Both the position numbers and the translations under genes were made by a program. Below are positions 57,275 through 62,830 of a DNA stretch of 64,000 nucleotides, piece after piece. Position 1 is the first letter of the stretch; each line of letters starts with the position of its first letter. The notes beneath the pieces were generated by a model. It did not search any database, was not told the DNA's origin, and saw nothing but the letters and a program-made list of their open reading frames with translations. The stretch is from Candidatus Multivorans sp. (GTDB lineage: Bacteria > Acidobacteriota > Thermoanaerobaculia > Multivoradales > Multivoraceae), in assembly GCA_965224025.1 (NCBI GenBank), contig OZ245033.1, positions 4,928,001-4,992,000 on the forward strand, read 5' to 3'.

Positions 57275-58843
57275 CTACGGCGCCTGCCAGTTCGGGTTTC
57301 CCAAAGCGCCGGACTCGTCGAGGAGTTCGTCCAGGCGCCCGGACAGGCGGTCGAACAGCTCCTTGAGTGCCAGCACCTCGGCTGCGTCTTCGCCGTCCTG
57401 GCTCCGCGCGTTCCTGGCCGCGACCGCCAGTCGCGTCTCGACGTTGCCGGCGCCGTGGCGGGTGATGAAGTCGCCAAGCAGGTTGTTTCTCTCCGCCGGG
57501 TCGGCCTCCAGGTCGTAGAGCTCGTAGCGGTCCCAAACGCCGTGGAATCGCATCAACTTGTAGCGGTCCGTGCGCACACCCAGCACGGTCGGCGTCTGCG
57601 GGAAGGACCGTTCCCAGAAGTACTCGTAGAGGAAGGCGTCGCGCCACGGCGACGCATTGGTCCGGTCGCCTTCGATCAGTCCCAGGAAGGAGCGCCCCTG
57701 GACGGTTGACGGGATCTCGAGTCCCGCGGCCTCCAGGAAGGTCGGCGCGAAGTCCAGGTTGACGATGAGTTCCGGGCGCCGCAAACCCCCGGCGCCGCCC
57801 TCGAACCCCGGCGCCAGGACGACCAGCGGTACGCGGATCGACGCCTCGTACATCGTCCGTTTGTCGATCAGGCCGTGCTCGCCGAACTGGAAGCCGTTGT
57901 CGGAGGTGAACACGAGCAGCGTCCGTTCCAGATGCCCCTGCTGTTCCAGGGCGCCTACGATCCGCCCGACACTGTCATCGACCGCGCGCATGGTCTCCGC
58001 GTAGTCCAGCGCGAACTGCTGGAAGTCGACCCGGTTGTCGTACAGGCCGTCGACGCCGTGCCAACTCCGACGCTGCGCCTCGACCCAGTTCGGCTTGCCC
58101 TCGTAGTTGTCATGCCGGTTCGCCATCGTCGGCGGAGGTGGATACCGCCGATCGGCGTAGCTCCCGAGGTGGCGTTCCGCGGGCCGGAAGGGCGAGTGAA
58201 CGGCCTTGTGCGACACGTAGAGCAGGAAGGGCTCATCCGCCCCCTCGCGGGCGGCCAGGAAGTCCAGCGCGTAGTCGGTGATCAGGTCCGTGGTGTAGCC
58301 CTGGCGCGGCACCCGTTCGCCGTCGATGTTGAAGGTCTGGTTGTAGTAGAGGCCCTGACCCGGAAACGAGACCCAGCGGTCGAATCCCGGCCGCGGCTCG
58401 TCGGAGCTGCCTCCCATGTGCCACTTGCCGACGAAGGCGGTCCGGTAGCCGGCGCCCTGGAGTTCCTGCGGGAAGGTCGGCGTCGACGGATCGAGGCGAG
58501 TGCGGTTGTCGAGCACACCGTGCCGATGGGCGTACTGCCCGGTGAGGATCGACGCCCGGCTCGGCGAGCAGAGCGACGTGGTCACGAAGGCGTTCTCGAA
58601 CAGCACCCCGCGTTCGATCAGCCGATCGAGGTGCGGAGTCTCGAGGAACGGGTGTCCGAGCGCGGAAGCGGCGTCGAAGCGCTGGTCGTCGATCAGGATG
58701 AAGACGATGTTCGGGCGCTCGTCGGCGAGCCCCGGAGCGGCCGCCATCAGAGTCAACCCGCACGCCGCCAGCAGGCGCACGCCAAGGCGTCCGGTCCTTC
58801 GCCACCGTCCCGGTTCCCTGTTCGTCATCTCAGCTCCCGTCAT
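57275..58843 (-). CDS. Sulfatase (Cys-type)
   Basis: PNIVFILIDD, CSPSRASILTG, GKWH and SDNG motifs. Confidence 0.93.
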   Translation of the reverse strand: MTGAEMTNREPGRWRRTGRLGVRLLAACGLTLMAAAPGLADERPNIVFILIDDQRFDAASALGHPFLETPHLDRLIERGVLFENAFVTTSLCSPSRASILTGQYAHRHGVLDNRTRLDPSTPTFPQELQGAGYRTAFVGKWHMGGSSDEPRPGFDRWVSFPGQGLYYNQTFNIDGERVPRQGYTTDLITDYALDFLAAREGADEPFLLYVSHKAVHSPFRPAERHLGSYADRRYPPPPTMANRHDNYEGKPNWVEAQRRSWHGVDGLYDNRVDFQQFALDYAETMRAVDDSVGRIVGALEQQGHLERTLLVFTSDNGFQFGEHGLIDKRTMYEASIRVPLVVLAPGFEGGAGGLRRPELIVNLDFAPTFLEAAGLEIPSTVQGRSFLGLIEGDRTNASPWRDAFLYEYFWERSFPQTPTVLGVRTDRYKLMRFHGVWDRYELYDLEADPAERNNLLGDFITRHGAGNVETRLAVAARNARSQDGEDAAEVLALKELFDRLSGRLDELLDESGALGNPNWQAP

Positions 58844-59769
58844 CTCAATTCTGCTGGGGGAAGTTCGCCCAGACCGACCGCCGCCAGTTCCCCGGGCTCG
58901 TAGTTCCAGCGCCGGTAGTTCCACATCCACTGCTCGGGCTGCGCCCGCACTCTCCGTTCGATCGCCCCGGCGATGCGCTGCGACAGCTCGACCGCGTCCC
59001 GCGTCCCGCCCGGAGAGCGGAGGATCTCACTCTCCAGCCGGTACGAGAAGGGGCCCTCGCGGACACAGAACGCCGCGACCAGGGGACAGTCGCGCTTGGC
59101 CGCCAGCGCCGCCGGGCCACCGACGAACTCCGTGCGGCGGCCCAGGAAAGAGACCTCCGGACCGCGCCGCTGGTCGGGCCGCTGATCGACCACCATGATC
59201 AGCGTCTCCTTCCGCTTGAGGCAGCTCAGCATGTCGCGCAGGAGAGAGGCACGCCCGCTCCAGATCACCCGAACCCCCGCCCGCGCCCGCATCCGCTCGA
59301 CAAAGAGCGACGTTGCCGCGGAACGCGCGGGCTTGGCGACCGCGCACACCGGAGAGGCGGCCGTGCGTACGATGCTCTGAGCCAGCAGTTCCCAGGCGCC
59401 TAGGTGGGCCGTGACCAGCACCTGGCCGCGGCCGCAACCCTCGACCTCTTCCATCAACCGCTGCAGGTCGCCGAAACCCTCCATTGCCCCTACGTCGAGC
59501 CGCTTCTGGTCGAAGCTGATCCGCACTGTCTCGAGCGCCGCCACGATCTGGTGCCGCACGCAGCGCCACTCCAGGTCGCGCGCCTCCGGCGACCCCGGAG
59601 GCAAGCCCACGACGACCGCCAGGTTCCGCCGCATCAACCGCACGTCGCGCGGCGTGACCCAGCGGCAAAGGGCCAGCAGCCCCGCCAGCGGGCCGAAGGC
59701 TGCAGCCGGCAGCAGGCGCAACAGCCACGAGGCGGCTAAGAGGAAGACTCCCATGGAGCGGTTGGACAT
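58840..59769 (-). CDS. Lipid A biosynthesis acyltransferase (LpxL/HtrB family)
   Basis: TAHLGAWE, VDQ, FLG and PEQWMWNYRRW motifs. Confidence 0.88.
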   Translation of the reverse strand: MSNRSMGVFLLAASWLLRLLPAAAFGPLAGLLALCRWVTPRDVRLMRRNLAVVVGLPPGSPEARDLEWRCVRHQIVAALETVRISFDQKRLDVGAMEGFGDLQRLMEEVEGCGRGQVLVTAHLGAWELLAQSIVRTAASPVCAVAKPARSAATSLFVERMRARAGVRVIWSGRASLLRDMLSCLKRKETLIMVVDQRPDQRRGPEVSFLGRRTEFVGGPAALAAKRDCPLVAAFCVREGPFSYRLESEILRSPGGTRDAVELSQRIAGAIERRVRAQPEQWMWNYRRWNYEPGELAAVGLGELPPAELR

Positions 59770-59844
59770 CGGGCTGCCAGTCTAGGAGTGTCCGCAGCGT
59801 TGTCGCTGCGCTGTCGCGCAGGGAACAGGCAGCGAGTAGCCAAC

Positions 59845-59873
59845 GTTACAGCGGCGTCGTGGGTTCATAGAGT
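59845..59873 (+). promoter_or_regulatory. Putative sigma70-like promoter for the IS110 ncRNA
   Basis: GTTACA-17 bp-TAGAGT, ending 5 nt before the RNA closing stem. Confidence 0.4.
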
Positions 59874-59878
59874 TGGCC

Positions 59879-60032
59879 GCGCTGGGCAGCGAGGCCGCGC
59901 AGGCACTGGTGTGTTGGCGCCCGACTAGGAGTTTGGCCCGGACCGTGATCGGCGCTCTGACGCTGGCGGCGCGGCTTGTGTCGCGACCCCGTATGCAAGA
60001 TTGAGCTTTTCGCCGCGGTCTCTGCCCAGCGC
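59879..60032 (+). ncRNA. Putative IS110 bridge RNA
   Basis: Closing stem gcgctgggcag (59879-59889) / ctgcccagcgc (60022-60032). Internal ctaggagt (59925-59932) and atgcaaga (59993-60000) match the left and right element junctions. Confidence 0.68.
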
Positions 60033-60066
60033 GACGATTGGATTCCACATCTACGGGAGGCAGGGG

Positions 60067-61386
60067 ATGGCAAAGCGGAAGGCGGAGCGTCTGGAAGTCG
60101 TTCACCCGGATTGCGCCGGTGTGGACGTAGGCAAGCGCAAGCACTACGTGGCGGTGGCCCCGTCGCGTTTCGAGCGGCCGGTGCGCAATTTCTCGTCGTT
60201 CACGGAGGACCTCGAGGCGATGGCCTCGTGGCTTCAGGAGTGCGGCGTGCGTGAGGTGGCGCTGGAGTCGACGGGGGTGTACTGGATTCCGGTGTTCGAG
60301 GTGCTGGACCGGGCGGGGTTCGAGGTGCATCTGGTGAATCCTCGGGCGACCAAGCAGGTGAGTGGCCGCAAGAGTGACGTTCTGGACTGCCAGTGGATCC
60401 GGCAGTTGATGAGCTACGGGCTCCTGCGCGGTGCGTTTCGCGCGCCGGACGAGTTGTGTCCGCTGCGTTCGTACACGCGGCAGCGCGCCCAGTTGGTCCG
60501 CGACCGCAGCCGCGCGGTGCAGCACATCCAGAAGGCTCTGGTGCAGATGAACGTGCAGTTGGACAACGTGCTGAGCGACATCATGGGCAAGACCGGCCAG
60601 TTGATCGTGCGCGCGATCGTCGCCGGCGAGCGCGACGGCGCGGCGCTGGCCCGTCACCGGGACGGTCGCTGCAAGGCTGGTCCGGCTGTGATCGCGGCGA
60701 GTTTGCAAGGCAACTGGCGAGACGAGCACCTGTTCGCTCTGGGCCAGGCGCTGGCCCGCTACGACATGCTGCAAGGCCAGATCGAGATGTGCGAGAAGCG
60801 CATCGACGCCGAGCTCGACGGTCTGGCCCAAGACGGCGTCGAGGACGCGCCGCCGCCCGGTTCGAAGGCGCGCGAGCGCGCCCTGCGGAAGCGGCTGCAT
60901 CGCATGCTCGGCGTGGACCTGGTCGCCATTCCGACGGTCGGCGTCGAAACCGCGCTGACCTTCGCCGCTGAGATCGGCCCGGACCTGTCCCGGTTTCCCT
61001 CGCAGGGCAACTTCTGCTCGTGGCTGTGTCTGGCTCCACCGACCAACATCAGCGGCGACAAACGGCTGAACGGCCCTCCCGTGAAGCAGACCAACCGGGT
61101 CGGCCAGGCGCTGCGCCAAGCCGCCACCACAGCCCGCAACAGCAAGACCGCCATCGGAGCCTCTCACCGCCGGCGTCTCCAGCACATGGAGAAGGCGAAG
61201 GCCATCAAGGCCACCGCTCATCAACTCGGCCGACTGATCTACGCCATGCTGACCCACGGCGAAGAGTACGTCGAGCGCGACCTCGCCGAAATGGAGGCCG
61301 TCCGACGCGAACGACAAATCAGAAACCTGCAGCGTCAGGCCCGCCGCCTGAATCTGGCTCTCGTGCCGACCGAACATGCCGCCTGA
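60067..61386 (+). CDS. IS110-family DEDD transposase/recombinase
   Basis: GVDVGK, ALESTGVYW, RKSDVLDC (DEDD RuvC-like) and C-terminal AEIGPDLSRF…NISG serine motif; GGAGG RBS. Confidence 0.95.
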   Translation: MAKRKAERLEVVHPDCAGVDVGKRKHYVAVAPSRFERPVRNFSSFTEDLEAMASWLQECGVREVALESTGVYWIPVFEVLDRAGFEVHLVNPRATKQVSGRKSDVLDCQWIRQLMSYGLLRGAFRAPDELCPLRSYTRQRAQLVRDRSRAVQHIQKALVQMNVQLDNVLSDIMGKTGQLIVRAIVAGERDGAALARHRDGRCKAGPAVIAASLQGNWRDEHLFALGQALARYDMLQGQIEMCEKRIDAELDGLAQDGVEDAPPPGSKARERALRKRLHRMLGVDLVAIPTVGVETALTFAAEIGPDLSRFPSQGNFCSWLCLAPPTNISGDKRLNGPPVKQTNRVGQALRQAATTARNSKTAIGASHRRRLQHMEKAKAIKATAHQLGRLIYAMLTHGEEYVERDLAEMEAVRRERQIRNLQRQARRLNLALVPTEHAA

Positions 61387-61453
61387 ATCGCGCAACCTGC
61401 GCTGCCAACAAGGAACCCCTACCCGTTTGTTCCATGCAAGACTGCGCAGGCTC

Positions 61454-62830
61454 CTACGGATCGGCGCCCATGCGCTTGCCGCGCTGCACTTGGCCCCAGC
61501 GTTCGAGGCGCAGGTGGGTGGCCCGCCCTGTCTCCGCATCCACCTCGAAGATCGCGATCTGCTCCCGGTCGCGGGTGCCGACGAAGCGGTGCTCCCCGAT
61601 CGGCACCGTCTCCGTGCCGGCGATCATCAGCTTGCCGTCCTTGACCAGGACGGGGATCGGGTTCCGGCCGAAGTCGTAGATGCCGGCGTAGCGCTTCAAC
61701 TCGTCCGGTTCCAGTGTCACAGCGGCGTGTTCGGCCTCCTGTACGCCGAGGACCGCGCGGGCGATTCGGGCCTCGAGCGGGCCCGGTTCGGCTGACGTGC
61801 TGTTGCTGAGCACGGCGACGACCAACTCGTCGTCCGGGTACCAGGAAAGCTGGCTCAGGAAACCGTTGATTCCGCCGCCGTGGGAGATCTTCCGGTGACC
61901 CGCCATCTCGCCGACCTGTAGGCCGAGGCCGTAACCGATCTCCTCGCCGCCCGGCAGCCGGCGCCTGGTGGTCATCGCGCTGAGGCTGTCCGGCGTCACG
62001 ACATCGCCGGCGCCGAGCGCCGTGGTCCAGCGCGCGAGGTCGAGAACGCTCGAGCCCAGGGAGCCGGCCGAGAAGGGCAGCAGCATGGAGAGCGGTTCGT
62101 CGTTCAGCAGGACGCCGTCTTCGACCCGGTAGCCCTCGGCACGGTTGGGGACGATCGGATCGTTGTAGAGGTAGTGCGACTCCCGCATTCCGAGCGGGCG
62201 GAAGAACGTCTCCCGGAGGTACTCGGCGTAGCTGCGGCCGCTCGCCTTCTCGATCAGCAGGCCGGCCAGGTAGTAGCCGGAGTTGCTGTACTGGTAGCGG
62301 TCGCCGGGCTCGAACTCGTAGGGCTGGGCCGAGAACAGTTCGATCATCTGCTCGTGGGAGAGGTCGAGCCGGCTCTGCTCCCAGAACGACGGCATCTCGG
62401 TGTAGCCCTTGATTCCCGAGGTGTGATCGAGCAACTGCCCGACCGTGATGTGGAACTCGCCGACCGGGTAGTCGGGGAAGTACTTCGCGATCGGCTCGTC
62501 GAGGGTGACCTTGCCCGCCTCGGCCAGCTTCAGAACCGCCGCGGCCGTGAACTGCTTGGTGACCGAGCCGATCCGGTAGACCGTGTGCTCGGTTGCCGGC
62601 ACCCGGTTCTCGACGTCGGCGAGGCCGTAGCCCTTGGCGAGGATCAGCTCGCCGCCGGACTGGACCGCGACGGAGATGCCAGGCGTCTGCGTGGCCTCCA
62701 TCGAGTCGGAGACCAACTCGTCGATTCGTTCGAGCAGAGCGCCGCGGTCGTCGCCGGCGGCCGACCCCGGCGCCGGAATCGATGTGAGCGCGGCGAGGAA
62801 GACGGGCCCGGCCCTTGATCTGATTCGCAT
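61454..62830 (-). CDS. Serine hydrolase (class C beta-lactamase-like)
   Basis: GSVTK, LLDHTSG, YSNSGY and HGGGING motifs. Confidence 0.92.
   Translation of the reverse strand: MRIRSRAGPVFLAALTSIPAPGSAAGDDRGALLERIDELVSDSMEATQTPGISVAVQSGGELILAKGYGLADVENRVPATEHTVYRIGSVTKQFTAAAVLKLAEAGKVTLDEPIAKYFPDYPVGEFHITVGQLLDHTSGIKGYTEMPSFWEQSRLDLSHEQMIELFSAQPYEFEPGDRYQYSNSGYYLAGLLIEKASGRSYAEYLRETFFRPLGMRESHYLYNDPIVPNRAEGYRVEDGVLLNDEPLSMLLPFSAGSLGSSVLDLARWTTALGAGDVVTPDSLSAMTTRRRLPGGEEIGYGLGLQVGEMAGHRKISHGGGINGFLSQLSWYPDDELVVAVLSNSTSAEPGPLEARIARAVLGVQEAEHAAVTLEPDELKRYAGIYDFGRNPIPVLVKDGKLMIAGTETVPIGEHRFVGTRDREQIAIFEVDAETGRATHLRLERWGQVQRGKRMGADP

What the first reader, a model, noticed from the sequence alone, without database searches (positions are those of the whole stretch)
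59782..61441. IS110 element with a readable guide (bridge-like) RNA carrying copies of both junctions
Seen: the ~280-bp non-coding region 5' of the DEDD recombinase is closed by a perfect 11-bp stem (59879-59889/60022-60032), extendable by gaggccgcg/cgcggtct. Inside it, CTAGGAGT (59925-59932) equals the left junction (59782-59789) and ATGCAAGA (59993-60000) equals the right junction (61434-61441). Both junctions share AG. Known: IS110-group elements such as IS621 encode a bridge RNA whose loops pair with target and donor DNA around a 2-nt core. Inference: this is an RNA-guided recombinase with an AG core, target ..CTAGG-AG-ACTG.. and donor ..ATGCA-AG-TGTC... The guides sit inside one long closing stem, which appears to be a different layout from IS621. 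Right-side guides are only weakly identifiable by eye.
Basis: partly seen in the sequence, partly recalled or inferred. Interest (0 to 1): 0.85.

Follow-up and report, generated by a model that had tools for sequence, protein, structure and literature searches.

The report
IS110 element with readable bridge RNA
This is an intact, recently multiplied IS110-family insertion sequence whose upstream non-coding region encodes a bridge (guide) RNA that spells out its insertion site and its own end; the system is of a known kind, but its guides lie in the opposite order to the textbook element IS621.

Summary
The window holds a 1,652-bp IS110-family element (59789-61440). It is one of 14 near-identical copies in this genome, all inserted in a REP-like repeat at CTAGG-AG|N-CTGCGC. 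The 439-aa recombinase has both IS110 domains and the D-E-D-D plus Ser residues.

The 5' non-coding region folds, with strong compensatory covariation in 29 homologues, into a long closing stem around two stem-loops, each with an internal loop. CTAGGAG (59925-59931) and ATGCAAG (59993-59999) lie on the 3' side of loops 1 and 2.

Across homologues:
- The loop-1 word tracks the left flank: 10 of 13 distinct words, 0 of 10,000 permutations.
- The loop-2 word tracks the right end: 7 of 8 words.
- The AG core never changes.

GCGCAG (59897-59902), on the 5' side of loop 1, is complementary to the right flank at +2..+7. The base after the left guide tracks the first base of the element, like a handshake guide. 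No right-donor guide was found.

Guide order is the reverse of IS621, and the core AG is the complement of IS621's CT. This order is known for IS1111-type seekRNAs. RNA expression and circle formation are untested. Verdict: a new member of a known kind.

The parts
59782..59786 (+). Left half of the host target (CTAGG), not part of the element
   Evidence: Present in 14 of 14 copies, with unrelated sequence further left. Present in empty sites in the same genome and in the empty orthologous site of a relative.
59787..59788 (+). Left copy of the AG core dinucleotide
   Evidence: AG is the only sequence shared by the left junction, the right junction and the empty sites. AG is invariant in both guide words in 29 of 29 aligned RNAs.
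59789..61440 (+). The insertion sequence (1,652 bp, counting the right core copy)
   Evidence: 14 copies at 99-100% identity. Contig depth is about 282 inside against about 19 in the flanks in run X1.
59789..59834 (+). Left-end terminal region with GC-rich hairpins and the subterminal repeat GGGAACA (59821-59827)
   Evidence: Inverted repeats I1, I9 and I12. The CGCAGGGAAC block is conserved across homologues.
59866..59873 (+). A/T-richer patch just upstream of the closing stem; possible -10 box (inferred only)
   Evidence: TATAAA-like words at the aligned place in homologues. The consensus promoter scan found no site.
59875..60036 (+). Bridge RNA gene (structured core, about 160 nt)
   Evidence: Consensus structure from 29 sequences: 37 pairs, 93.7% of cells paired against 34-44% with slid partners; 24 pairs have changes on both sides; 0 of 500 shuffles reach this.
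59878..59889 (+). Closing stem P1, 5' arm
   Evidence: I13; helix 1.
60022..60033 (+). Closing stem P1, 3' arm
59893..59938 (+). Target-binding stem-loop: outer stem GGCC 59893-96 / GGCC 59935-38, inner hairpin 59907-59923
   Evidence: Helices 2 and 3 (99.1% and 96.5% paired, both with compensatory changes); coordinates.
59897..59902 (+). Right-target guide (GCGCAG; CCGCGCAG from 59895) on the 5' side of loop 1. [quoted passage not shown]
   Evidence: In the 14 window-type copies the match is 6 of 6 in 7, 5 of 6 in 4, and 2-3 of 6 in 3. Over 17 guide types and 53 insertions the mean is 3.57 of 6 against 2.10 permuted (0 of 5,000). Of 22 offset-and-mode combinations only this one stands out (0 of 2,000).
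59925..59931 (+). Left-target guide (CTAGG + core AG) on the 3' side of loop 1. It has the top-strand sequence, so it would pair with the bottom strand.
59932..59932 (+). Handshake-like base: equals the first base of the element's left end
   Evidence: Identity 0.90 over 30 non-redundant elements, MI 1.26; 0.83 over 35 rows by alignment columns.
59951..60014 (+). Donor-binding stem-loop: outer stem GGCG 59951-54 / CGCC 60011-14, inner hairpin 59964-59991
   Evidence: Helices 4 and 5; coordinates. Both inner hairpins open with an invariant U-G pair followed by G-C (pairs 56/81 and 123/169).
59993..59999 (+). Left-donor guide (ATGCA + core AG) on the 3' side of loop 2
   Evidence: Equals the right end in 23 of 26 rows and 7 of 8 distinct words.
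60067..61386 (+). Recombinase gene (439 aa); ribosome-binding site GGGAGG at 60055-60060
   Evidence: PF01548 and PF02371; NF033542. D20, E67, D104, D107 and S329 align with the catalytic residues of IS621 chain 8wt6_A.
61387..61440 (+). Right end: hairpin GGAAC 61412-16 / GTTCC 61429-33, left donor ATGCA 61434-38, core AG 61439-40
61441..61449 (+). Right half of the host target (A-CTGCGCAG)

Best explanation
It is an active or recently active IS110-family insertion sequence. Its DEDD/Ser recombinase is guided by a bridge RNA encoded in the 285-bp left end.

The RNA is a long closing stem around two pseudo-symmetric stem-loops, each with an internal loop.

- Loop 1 reads the target, a REP-like repeat. 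[quoted passage not shown] - Loop 2 reads the element's own joined ends. [quoted passage not shown]
- The base after the left-target guide matches the first base of the left end, as a handshake base would after strand exchange.
- Recombination occurs at the AG core without a target duplication.

Shown here: element boundaries, target, core, RNA structure covariation, guide-to-DNA covariation, and intact catalytic residues.

Inferred from the published IS621, ISPpu10 and seekRNA work: that the RNA is made, binds the recombinase, and pairs with DNA in a circular-intermediate pathway.

The guides are in the reverse order to IS621. Read on the opposite DNA strand (core CT), the layout matches IS621's: a 5'-side guide, a hairpin, then a 3'-side guide ending in AG followed by a handshake base.
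For: - Protein family and catalytic residues.
- 14 copies at 99-100% identity with exact common ends. Contig depth is about 15 times higher inside the element than in the flanks.
- Empty targets: 17 in the same genome and 1 at the orthologous site of a relative.
- RNA structure: 24 of 37 pairs have compensatory changes, and 93.7% of cells are paired against 34-44% with slid partners. G-U pairs occur only in the + sense, including invariant U-G pairs at 56/81 and 123/169. This fits an RNA read from the + strand.
- Guide covariation: left-target guide 10 of 13 words, left-donor guide 7 of 8 words.
- Right-target guide: significant only for complementarity at +2.
- Handshake-like base.
- The 3'-side guide is strict: 14 of 14 copies are perfect here, 12 of 13 and 4 of 4 in two other multi-copy relatives. 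The 5'-side guide tolerates mismatches. This is the same asymmetry by RNA position that the ISPpu10 preprint reports (passages).
- A 51%-identical element on a Burkholderia vietnamiensis plasmid shows the same layout, with the words TTGAGAG and TCAGGAG matching its own junctions.
Against: - No guide for the right donor (the start of the left end) was found. Scans of the loop-2 5' side and of the segments after both guides gave at most about 2 of 5 matches.
- No sigma-70-like promoter was found inside the element, and by eye none across the joined ends.
- No right-end/left-end circle junction exists in the assembly (0 matches), and none was reported among the joints of four runs' contigs.
- Rfam has no matching family.
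- Right-target pairing is only partial in many relatives. It is absent in relatives whose left-target word equals their own right end.
- 8 of 39 rows did not match their left flank within one mismatch at the aligned column. Four of these are one-column register shifts and four are disrupted or misaligned.
Confidence: 0.9

Rival explanations
1. It is the same RNA-guided system, but my added assignments are wrong. [quoted passage not shown]
For: Right-flank pairing is partial: the per-type mean is 2.71 of 6. The window's own flank holds the palindrome CTGCGCAG, so pairing polarity cannot be read from this copy alone. The ISPpu10 preprint reports a target stem-loop that contributes beyond base pairing. 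The window's target also forms TAGGAG...CTCCTA (I9).
Against: Among 22 offset-and-mode combinations only complementarity at +2 is significant (0 of 2,000). Single-position co-changes are seen: the last guide base is G with C at +2 and C with G at +2, and the second-last is A with T and G with C.
Confidence: 0.12
2. The internal copies of the junction words act as DNA sites, for example recombinase-binding repeats, and not through an RNA.
For: No transcript data are available, and no promoter was found. A 7-nt word on the loop-2 5' side (CTGACGC, 59957-59963) recurs as DNA in the left ends of the miniature elements, and 6 of 7 in the element's own left end.
Against: The word in loop 1 tracks the host flank, which is not part of the element. 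The surrounding helices keep pairing through compensatory and G-U changes, as expected for RNA. The family's RNA guidance is established experimentally for IS621, ISPpu10, ISEc21 and CazIS110-1 (passages).
Confidence: 0.04
3. The matches are chance or a by-product of insertion into a repeat, and the region is only a 5' untranslated leader of the recombinase gene.
For: The single-sequence fold is not exceptional: z = 0.51 for 59782-60066 and -1.82 for 59870-60040. The genome is GC-rich and full of REP-like palindromes.
Against: Thirteen different loop-1 words in relatives follow thirteen different flanks (0 of 10,000 permutations). Structure covariation is strong.
Confidence: 0.01

Closest known systems
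IS621 of Escherichia coli and its bridge RNA (Durrant et al. 2024, PMC11208160; Hiraizumi et al. 2024, PMC11208158; passages read)
   Same: DEDD/Ser recombinase with the same two domains. The RNA is encoded in the left end upstream of the gene. There are two internal loops, one for the target and one for the donor. A 2-nt core is included in the guides, a handshake base follows a 3'-side guide, and there is no target duplication.
   Different: - The protein is only distantly related: E 6e-9, with the N-terminal part and a weak C-terminal stretch aligned. It is 439 aa against a 328-residue chain.
- The core is AG, not CT.
[quoted passage not shown]
- A 12-bp closing stem encloses both loops here. 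The papers describe a separate 5' stem-loop for IS621.
- No junction promoter was recognised.
- The right-target pairing starts at +2 and skips +1.
ISPpu10 of Pseudomonas putida (bioRxiv 10.64898/2026.03.19.712850; passages read)
   Same: Inserts into one class of REP sequence in a Pseudomonadales host. One guide is strict and the other tolerant. The target can form a stem-loop.
   Different: Per the text, ISPpu10 has a CT core and follows IS621 pairing logic. I did not compare sequences.
IS1111-type seekRNAs: ISEc11, ISKpn4, ISPa11 (Siddiquee et al. 2024, PMC11187229; passages read)
   Same: The segment complementary to the top strand lies 5' of the segment complementary to the bottom strand, as here. 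Subterminal inverted repeats are present (here GGGAACA / TGTTCC).
   Different: In IS1111-type elements the non-coding region lies downstream of the gene and the transposases are 330-350 aa. Here it lies upstream and the protein is 439 aa, the size range that paper gives for the subgroup containing IS110 itself (395-455 aa). In a plasmid search at E <= 1e-3, none of the up to 85 rows listed carried an IS1111-group product name.
ISEc21 (IS110-type, Siddiquee et al. 2024)
   Same: Upstream non-coding region that gives a guide RNA.
   Different: The reported guide order is the opposite one. The protein shares 26% identity over 96 residues. My own word search on the fetched ISEc21 locus was inconclusive.

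Membership tests
IS110-family bridge-RNA-guided recombinase element | Recombinase with an N-terminal DEDD RuvC-like domain and a C-terminal Tnp domain | tested here: met
   PF01548 at E 1.1e-25 and PF02371 at E 2e-11. NF033542 at 271 bits against a cut-off of 140.
IS110-family bridge-RNA-guided recombinase element | Catalytic D-E-D-D and the Tnp-domain serine | tested here: met
   D20, E67, D104, D107 and S329 align with the corresponding residues of IS621 chain 8wt6_A. The native IS621 numbering is recalled. The chain index is offset by two.
IS110-family bridge-RNA-guided recombinase element | No terminal inverted repeats and no target duplication; a short core shared by target and donor | tested here: met
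   The AG core lies at both junctions and in the empty sites.
IS110-family bridge-RNA-guided recombinase element | Long non-coding end that encodes a structured RNA with two internal loops | tested here: met
   five helices, 24 of 37 pairs with compensatory change.
IS110-family bridge-RNA-guided recombinase element | One loop covaries with both halves of the target | tested here: met
   Left half: 10 of 13 words. Right half: 0 of 5,000 and 0 of 2,000 permutations, though the pairing is partial.
IS110-family bridge-RNA-guided recombinase element | The other loop matches both donor ends | tested here: inconclusive
   The right-end side is met: 23 of 26 rows, 7 of 8 words. No guide for the left-end side was found.
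IS110-family bridge-RNA-guided recombinase element | The RNA is expressed and bound by the recombinase | not testable with these tools
   No RNA run was listed for this sequence.
IS110-family bridge-RNA-guided recombinase element | Circular intermediate with abutted ends, often creating a promoter | tested here: inconclusive
   There are 0 right-end/left-end junctions in the assembly, and none was reported among the joints of four runs' contigs. No consensus promoter was found. Assemblies and contigs would not be expected to keep a rare circle.
IS621-type bridge RNA layout | [quoted passage not shown] | tested here: not met
   Here the words with top-strand sequence lie on the 3' sides, the word complementary to the top strand lies on the 5' side, and a closing stem encloses both loops. 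The IS621 layout is taken from passages.
IS1111 group | Non-coding region and guide RNA downstream of the gene; transposase of 330-350 aa; subterminal inverted repeats of 7-17 bp | tested here: not met
   The non-coding region is upstream (285 bp against 54 bp downstream) and the protein is 439 aa. Only a 6-7-bp conserved subterminal repeat is present. The guide order does match this group.

The most novel reading that the evidence does not exclude
The long-recombinase IS110 subgroup (about 400-450 aa, here spanning Pseudomonadales MAGs to a Burkholderia plasmid) may use a bridge RNA class not yet described. It would be encoded in the left end like IS621 but wired as its mirror image: core AG, strict 7-nt guides plus a handshake base on the 3' sides, and tolerant guides on the 5' sides separated from the core by a 3-nt insert. 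It would be clamped by a long-range stem and perhaps driven by an internal rather than a junction promoter. If so, guide order is not tied to which end carries the RNA, and the gene can sit in either orientation relative to the order of strand exchange. This clade also leaves natural products of half-site targeting. These are miniature 59-bp donors, insertions into the guide-coding DNA of sister copies, and head-to-tail arrays.
Probability: 0.3. Interest if true: 0.5.

Novelty: new member of a known kind. Interest (0 to 1): 0.35.

Why it matters
This adds a clean natural example of a bridge-RNA system with several useful properties. It has a non-CT core. Its guides are readable. It has 14 fresh copies and 17 still-empty perfect targets in one genome. 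A family of roughly 59-66-bp miniature donors shows how little DNA the donor side needs.

For people who mine or engineer bridge recombinases, the reversed guide order in a left-end-encoded RNA is a practical warning. Models built on IS621 will mislabel left and right guides in this clade.

It does not change the understanding of the mechanism.

Tried and rejected
- Rfam scan of 59300-61900 at E <= 10: only three chance-level matches, no bridge RNA family.
- Single-sequence folds: not better than shuffles (z 0.51 and -1.82). The structure came only from the comparative fold.
- Promoter and terminator scan: 0 promoter-like sites. The two terminator-like sites are on the minus strand.
- Public runs: no RNA holder listed. 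Laying four runs' contigs gave no joint between right and left ends and no skip of the whole element. This says nothing about circles or expression.
- Right-donor guide: four RNA segments were scanned against the left end at 38 offsets in both modes. Only weak values came out, at most about 2 of 5, with small permutation counts that relatedness alone can produce.
- A mutual-information scan of left-end columns against RNA columns gave nothing clear.
- ISEc21 was fetched to test my orientation logic. The word search did not reproduce a clear pair of guides, so I rely on the papers' text for IS621.
- Citrobacter plasmid relative (46% identity): I could not parse an equivalent RNA by eye or by pattern.
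- Exact-sequence cluster look-up gave no name for the protein. ISfinder could not be consulted.
- Literature: three searches and passages of eight papers showed no statement of a left-end-encoded RNA with this guide order. Figures and supplements were not visible. A 2026 preprint reports 86 covariance models for 32,190 bridge RNAs, many unlike IS621, so the family may already be catalogued there.
- The right flank gene of the window is not next to the left flank gene in nine relatives. The empty-site evidence therefore rests on the left flank plus the repeat that follows it.
- Rows dropped. Of the 59 related loci, 46 entered my table. I left out L034-L040, L052, L055 and L068 (further copies of one element, used later) and L071, L073 and L074 (partial proteins). 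Before aligning I dropped L049, L059, L060 and L061 (less than 300 nt upstream), L058, L065 and L076 (upstream region unrelated or rearranged), and exact duplicates. That left 40 rows including the window. For the structure alignment (29 rows) I also dropped L027, L056, L072, L079 and L047.
Full report
**What is there**

The ORF at 60067-61386 (+) encodes a 439-aa protein with the two IS110 domains, PF01548 and PF02371. It matches NCBIfam NF033542, 'IS110 family RNA-guided transposase', at 271 bits against a cut-off of 140. Against solved structures the only hit is the IS621 transposase (8wt6_A, E 6.3e-9). In that alignment D20, E67, D104, D107 and S329 sit opposite the catalytic Asp-Glu-Asp-Asp and Ser of IS621. 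The flanking genes on the minus strand are a lipid A acyltransferase-family gene (58840-59769) and a beta-lactamase-fold gene (61454-62830). The element therefore lies in an intergenic gap.

**Boundaries, target and core**

The host genome (5.14 Mb, 67.6% G+C, three contigs) holds 14 copies at 99-100% identity, plus one 85%-identical relative.

- Left side: in 14 of 14 copies the shared sequence starts exactly at CTAGGAG|TGTCC, and the bases further left are unrelated.
- Right side: all copies end at CCATGCAAG|. The next base is A in 5, C in 6 and T in 3. In 11 copies it is followed by NTGCGC or CCGCGC.
- Empty sites settle which bases belong to the host. Of 54 matches to the right-half consensus, 6 are occupied, 6 are preceded by CTAGGAG, 11 by nnAGGAG, 8 by another word ending in AG, and 23 by something else.
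- Genome-wide there are 17 unoccupied CTAGGAG-N-[CT]TGCGC sites and 11 occupied equivalents.
- In the closest relative examined (91% identical left flank), the orthologous position carries an empty CTAGGAG-C-TTGCGCC.

So the target is a REP-like repeat and the core is AG. AG is the only sequence common to both junctions and the empty site. The element is 59789-61440, 1,652 bp. In run X1 the contig depth is about 282 inside and about 19 outside, and contigs break at 59782/59787 and at 61440/61447.

**The RNA**

A scan of one genome per species returned 59 related loci, with 45-86% protein identity, mostly Pseudomonadales MAGs by record title. An alignment of 29 distinct upstream regions gives a consensus fold with five helices. 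Counting pairs on that structure gives these figures:

| Measure | Observed | Control |
|---|---|---|
| Cells forming a standard pair | 93.7% | 34-44% with partners slid by 1-3 columns |
| Pairs with changes on both sides | 24 of 37 | — |
| Shuffles reaching any of the five measures | 0 of 500 | — |

In window coordinates the parts are as follows.

| Part | Coordinates |
|---|---|
| Closing stem P1 | 59878-59889 / 60022-60033 |
| Stem-loop 1, outer stem | 59893-96 / 59935-38 |
| Stem-loop 1, inner hairpin | 59907-59923 |
| Linker | 12 nt |
| Stem-loop 2, outer stem | 59951-54 / 60011-14 |
| Stem-loop 2, inner hairpin | 59964-59991 |

The two inner hairpins open with the same invariant U-G, G-C motif, so the two modules are pseudo-symmetric. 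G-U pairs occur only in the plus sense, which points to an RNA of the same sense as the gene. The proposed extension of that stem competes with the outer stem of stem-loop 1 and is not conserved.

**Guides**

CTAGGAG lies on the 3' side of internal loop 1 and ATGCAAG on the 3' side of internal loop 2. I defined the left boundary by alignment of the conserved left end, not by the guide word.

- Left-target guide. The 7 bases left of the element equal the loop-1 word in 29 of 39 rows, and 2 more differ at one base. Of the other 8, four are one-column register shifts and four are disrupted or misaligned. By distinct word, 10 of 13 match their own flank, and 0 of 10,000 permutations reach that. 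A direct search found an exact copy of the loop-1 word 111-172 nt upstream in 33 of 40 rows.
- Left-donor guide. I anchored the right end on the conserved GTTCC motif. The loop-2 word equals the 7 bases that end the element in 23 of 26 rows, 7 of 8 words (1 of 10,000 permutations).
- Core. The AG in both words is invariant in 29 of 29 sequences.
- Handshake-like base. The base after the loop-1 word (59932) equals the first base of the left end in 0.90 of 30 non-redundant elements, or 0.83 of 35 by alignment columns. IS621's handshake guide is described as lying just 3' of a 3'-side guide.
- Right-target guide. The 5' side of loop 1 (GCGCAG, 59897-59902; CCGCGCAG from 59895) is complementary to the right flank from +2. 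The consensus flank CTGCGCGG matches 8 of 8. The 14 copies score 6 of 6 in 7, 5 of 6 in 4 and 2-3 of 6 in 3. Over 53 insertions of 17 guide types the mean is 3.57 of 6 against 2.10 when guides are permuted among types (0 of 5,000). Weighted per type it is 2.71 against 1.90 (2 of 5,000). Of 22 offset-and-mode combinations only this one is significant (0 of 2,000).
- Right-donor guide. I found none.

**Comparison with what is known**

[quoted passage not shown] Here the order within each loop is reversed, the core is AG, and a long-range stem encloses both loops. AG is the reverse complement of CT. Read on the other DNA strand, this RNA has IS621's order: a 5'-side guide, a hairpin, then a 3'-side guide ending in AG followed by a handshake base.

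The strict-versus-tolerant asymmetry also follows RNA position. The 3'-side guide is matched perfectly in 14 of 14, 12 of 13 and 4 of 4 copies of three multi-copy elements. The 5'-side guide tolerates mismatches. The ISPpu10 preprint reports the same for its 3'-side RTG and its 5'-side LTG (passages).

Siddiquee et al. state that IS1111-type seekRNAs carry the top-strand complement 5' of the bottom-strand complement, and that the IS110-type ISEc21 has the reverse (passages). The present element therefore combines an upstream non-coding region with the IS1111-type order. Its protein length falls in the 395-455 aa range that paper gives for the subgroup containing IS110 itself. Its plasmid-borne relatives run down to about 30% identity in Streptomyces, Rhodococcus and Arthrobacter. 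IS621 and ISEc21 are only remote relatives. A 51%-identical element on a Burkholderia vietnamiensis plasmid shows the same layout, with different words that match its own junctions.

A 2026 preprint reports 86 covariance models covering 32,190 bridge RNAs, many unlike IS621 (section read). The family may already be catalogued there. I could not see figures or supplements.

**What is not shown**

- No RNA run holds this sequence.
- No consensus promoter was found. An A/T-richer patch with TATAAA-like words in relatives lies just upstream of P1. That is a guess at an internal promoter.
- No circle junction is in the assembly or in the laid contigs.

Expression, recombinase binding and the circular intermediate are therefore inferred from the characterised relatives.

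**Distribution**

Among 42 species representatives of the genus, counting this genome, 4 carry a match. This genome has 15. One other has a single 100%-identical copy, one has two 86%-identical copies, and one has a fragment. This fits recent acquisition followed by a burst in this genome.

**Verdict**

It is a new member of a known kind. Its layout differs from the textbook element in a way that matters for annotation and engineering more than for mechanism.

Noticed in passing
L011:3160-3218 (G000:C1:5044166-5044224); other copies listed: This is a family of miniature elements of about 59-66 bp. They begin TCGAGTCGCGG after a CTAGGAG or CCAGGAG site and end GTTCCATGCAAG. At least 13 copies are in this genome. 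They share the element's left-target word and right end, so the full element could mobilise them in trans. They look like natural minimal donors.
   Followed up: partly
L037:2821; L079:1261-1370; L017:1495 (G000:C1:4134221): The DNA that encodes the left-target guide is itself hit by insertions. In L037 a whole sister copy abuts the TTTGGCCCGG that follows the guide word. In L079 an 86-bp miniature element does so, and in L017 a right-end-like terminus does. The guide-coding DNA mimics half a target.
   Followed up: partly
L026, L027, L045, L048, L050, L051, L075 (left junctions): In these relatives the loop-1 word is a right-end-type word of the family (ATGCAAG, ATGAAAG and similar; identical to the element's own right end in L026, L027, L045 and L050). 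These elements sit directly after a right-end-like sequence, and in L027 and L050 head-to-tail with another copy. The 5'-side guide does not match their right flank. This resembles the tandem and half-match products described in two 2026 preprints (passages; abstract start).
   Followed up: partly
L015 (G000:C1:2129247-2130563, minus strand) and L016 (G000:C1:908921-909290): A second IS110-type element (85% protein identity) is split. One locus has the gene and right end but no RNA region. The other has the left end and RNA but no gene. Both break points abut the same GGGGATTATA-type terminus in opposite orientation. This suggests an inversion mediated by another insertion sequence.
   Followed up: partly
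window 59957-59963 versus 59811-59817: The 5' side of loop 2 carries CTGACGC. The same word occurs in the left ends of the miniature elements, and 6 of 7 in the element's own left end just before the conserved GGGAAC. Three clades of relatives show matching variants (GACGC, GTCAC/GTCGC, TTCAC). It matches by identity, not complementarity, and lies about 23-31 nt from the core. It does not fit the standard guide model and could be shared ancestry.
   Followed up: partly
window 59783-59802 and 61437-61456: The two halves of this particular target form an imperfect palindrome, TAGGAG...CTCCTA (I9). The unoccupied site could therefore form a hairpin, as reported for ISPpu10 targets.
   Followed up: no
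G048:C2:1347923-1349239: Another species of the genus carries a single copy of the recombinase gene at 100% identity, while 38 of the 42 genomes searched (this one included) have none. This suggests recent horizontal transfer.
   Followed up: no
L086:930-1200 and 2530-2570: An element on a Burkholderia vietnamiensis G4 plasmid (51% protein identity) lies in tandem with another IS110-family gene. It shows two CA[AG]TGG-type loops whose 3'-side words TTGAGAG and TCAGGAG equal its left junction and right end.
   Followed up: partly
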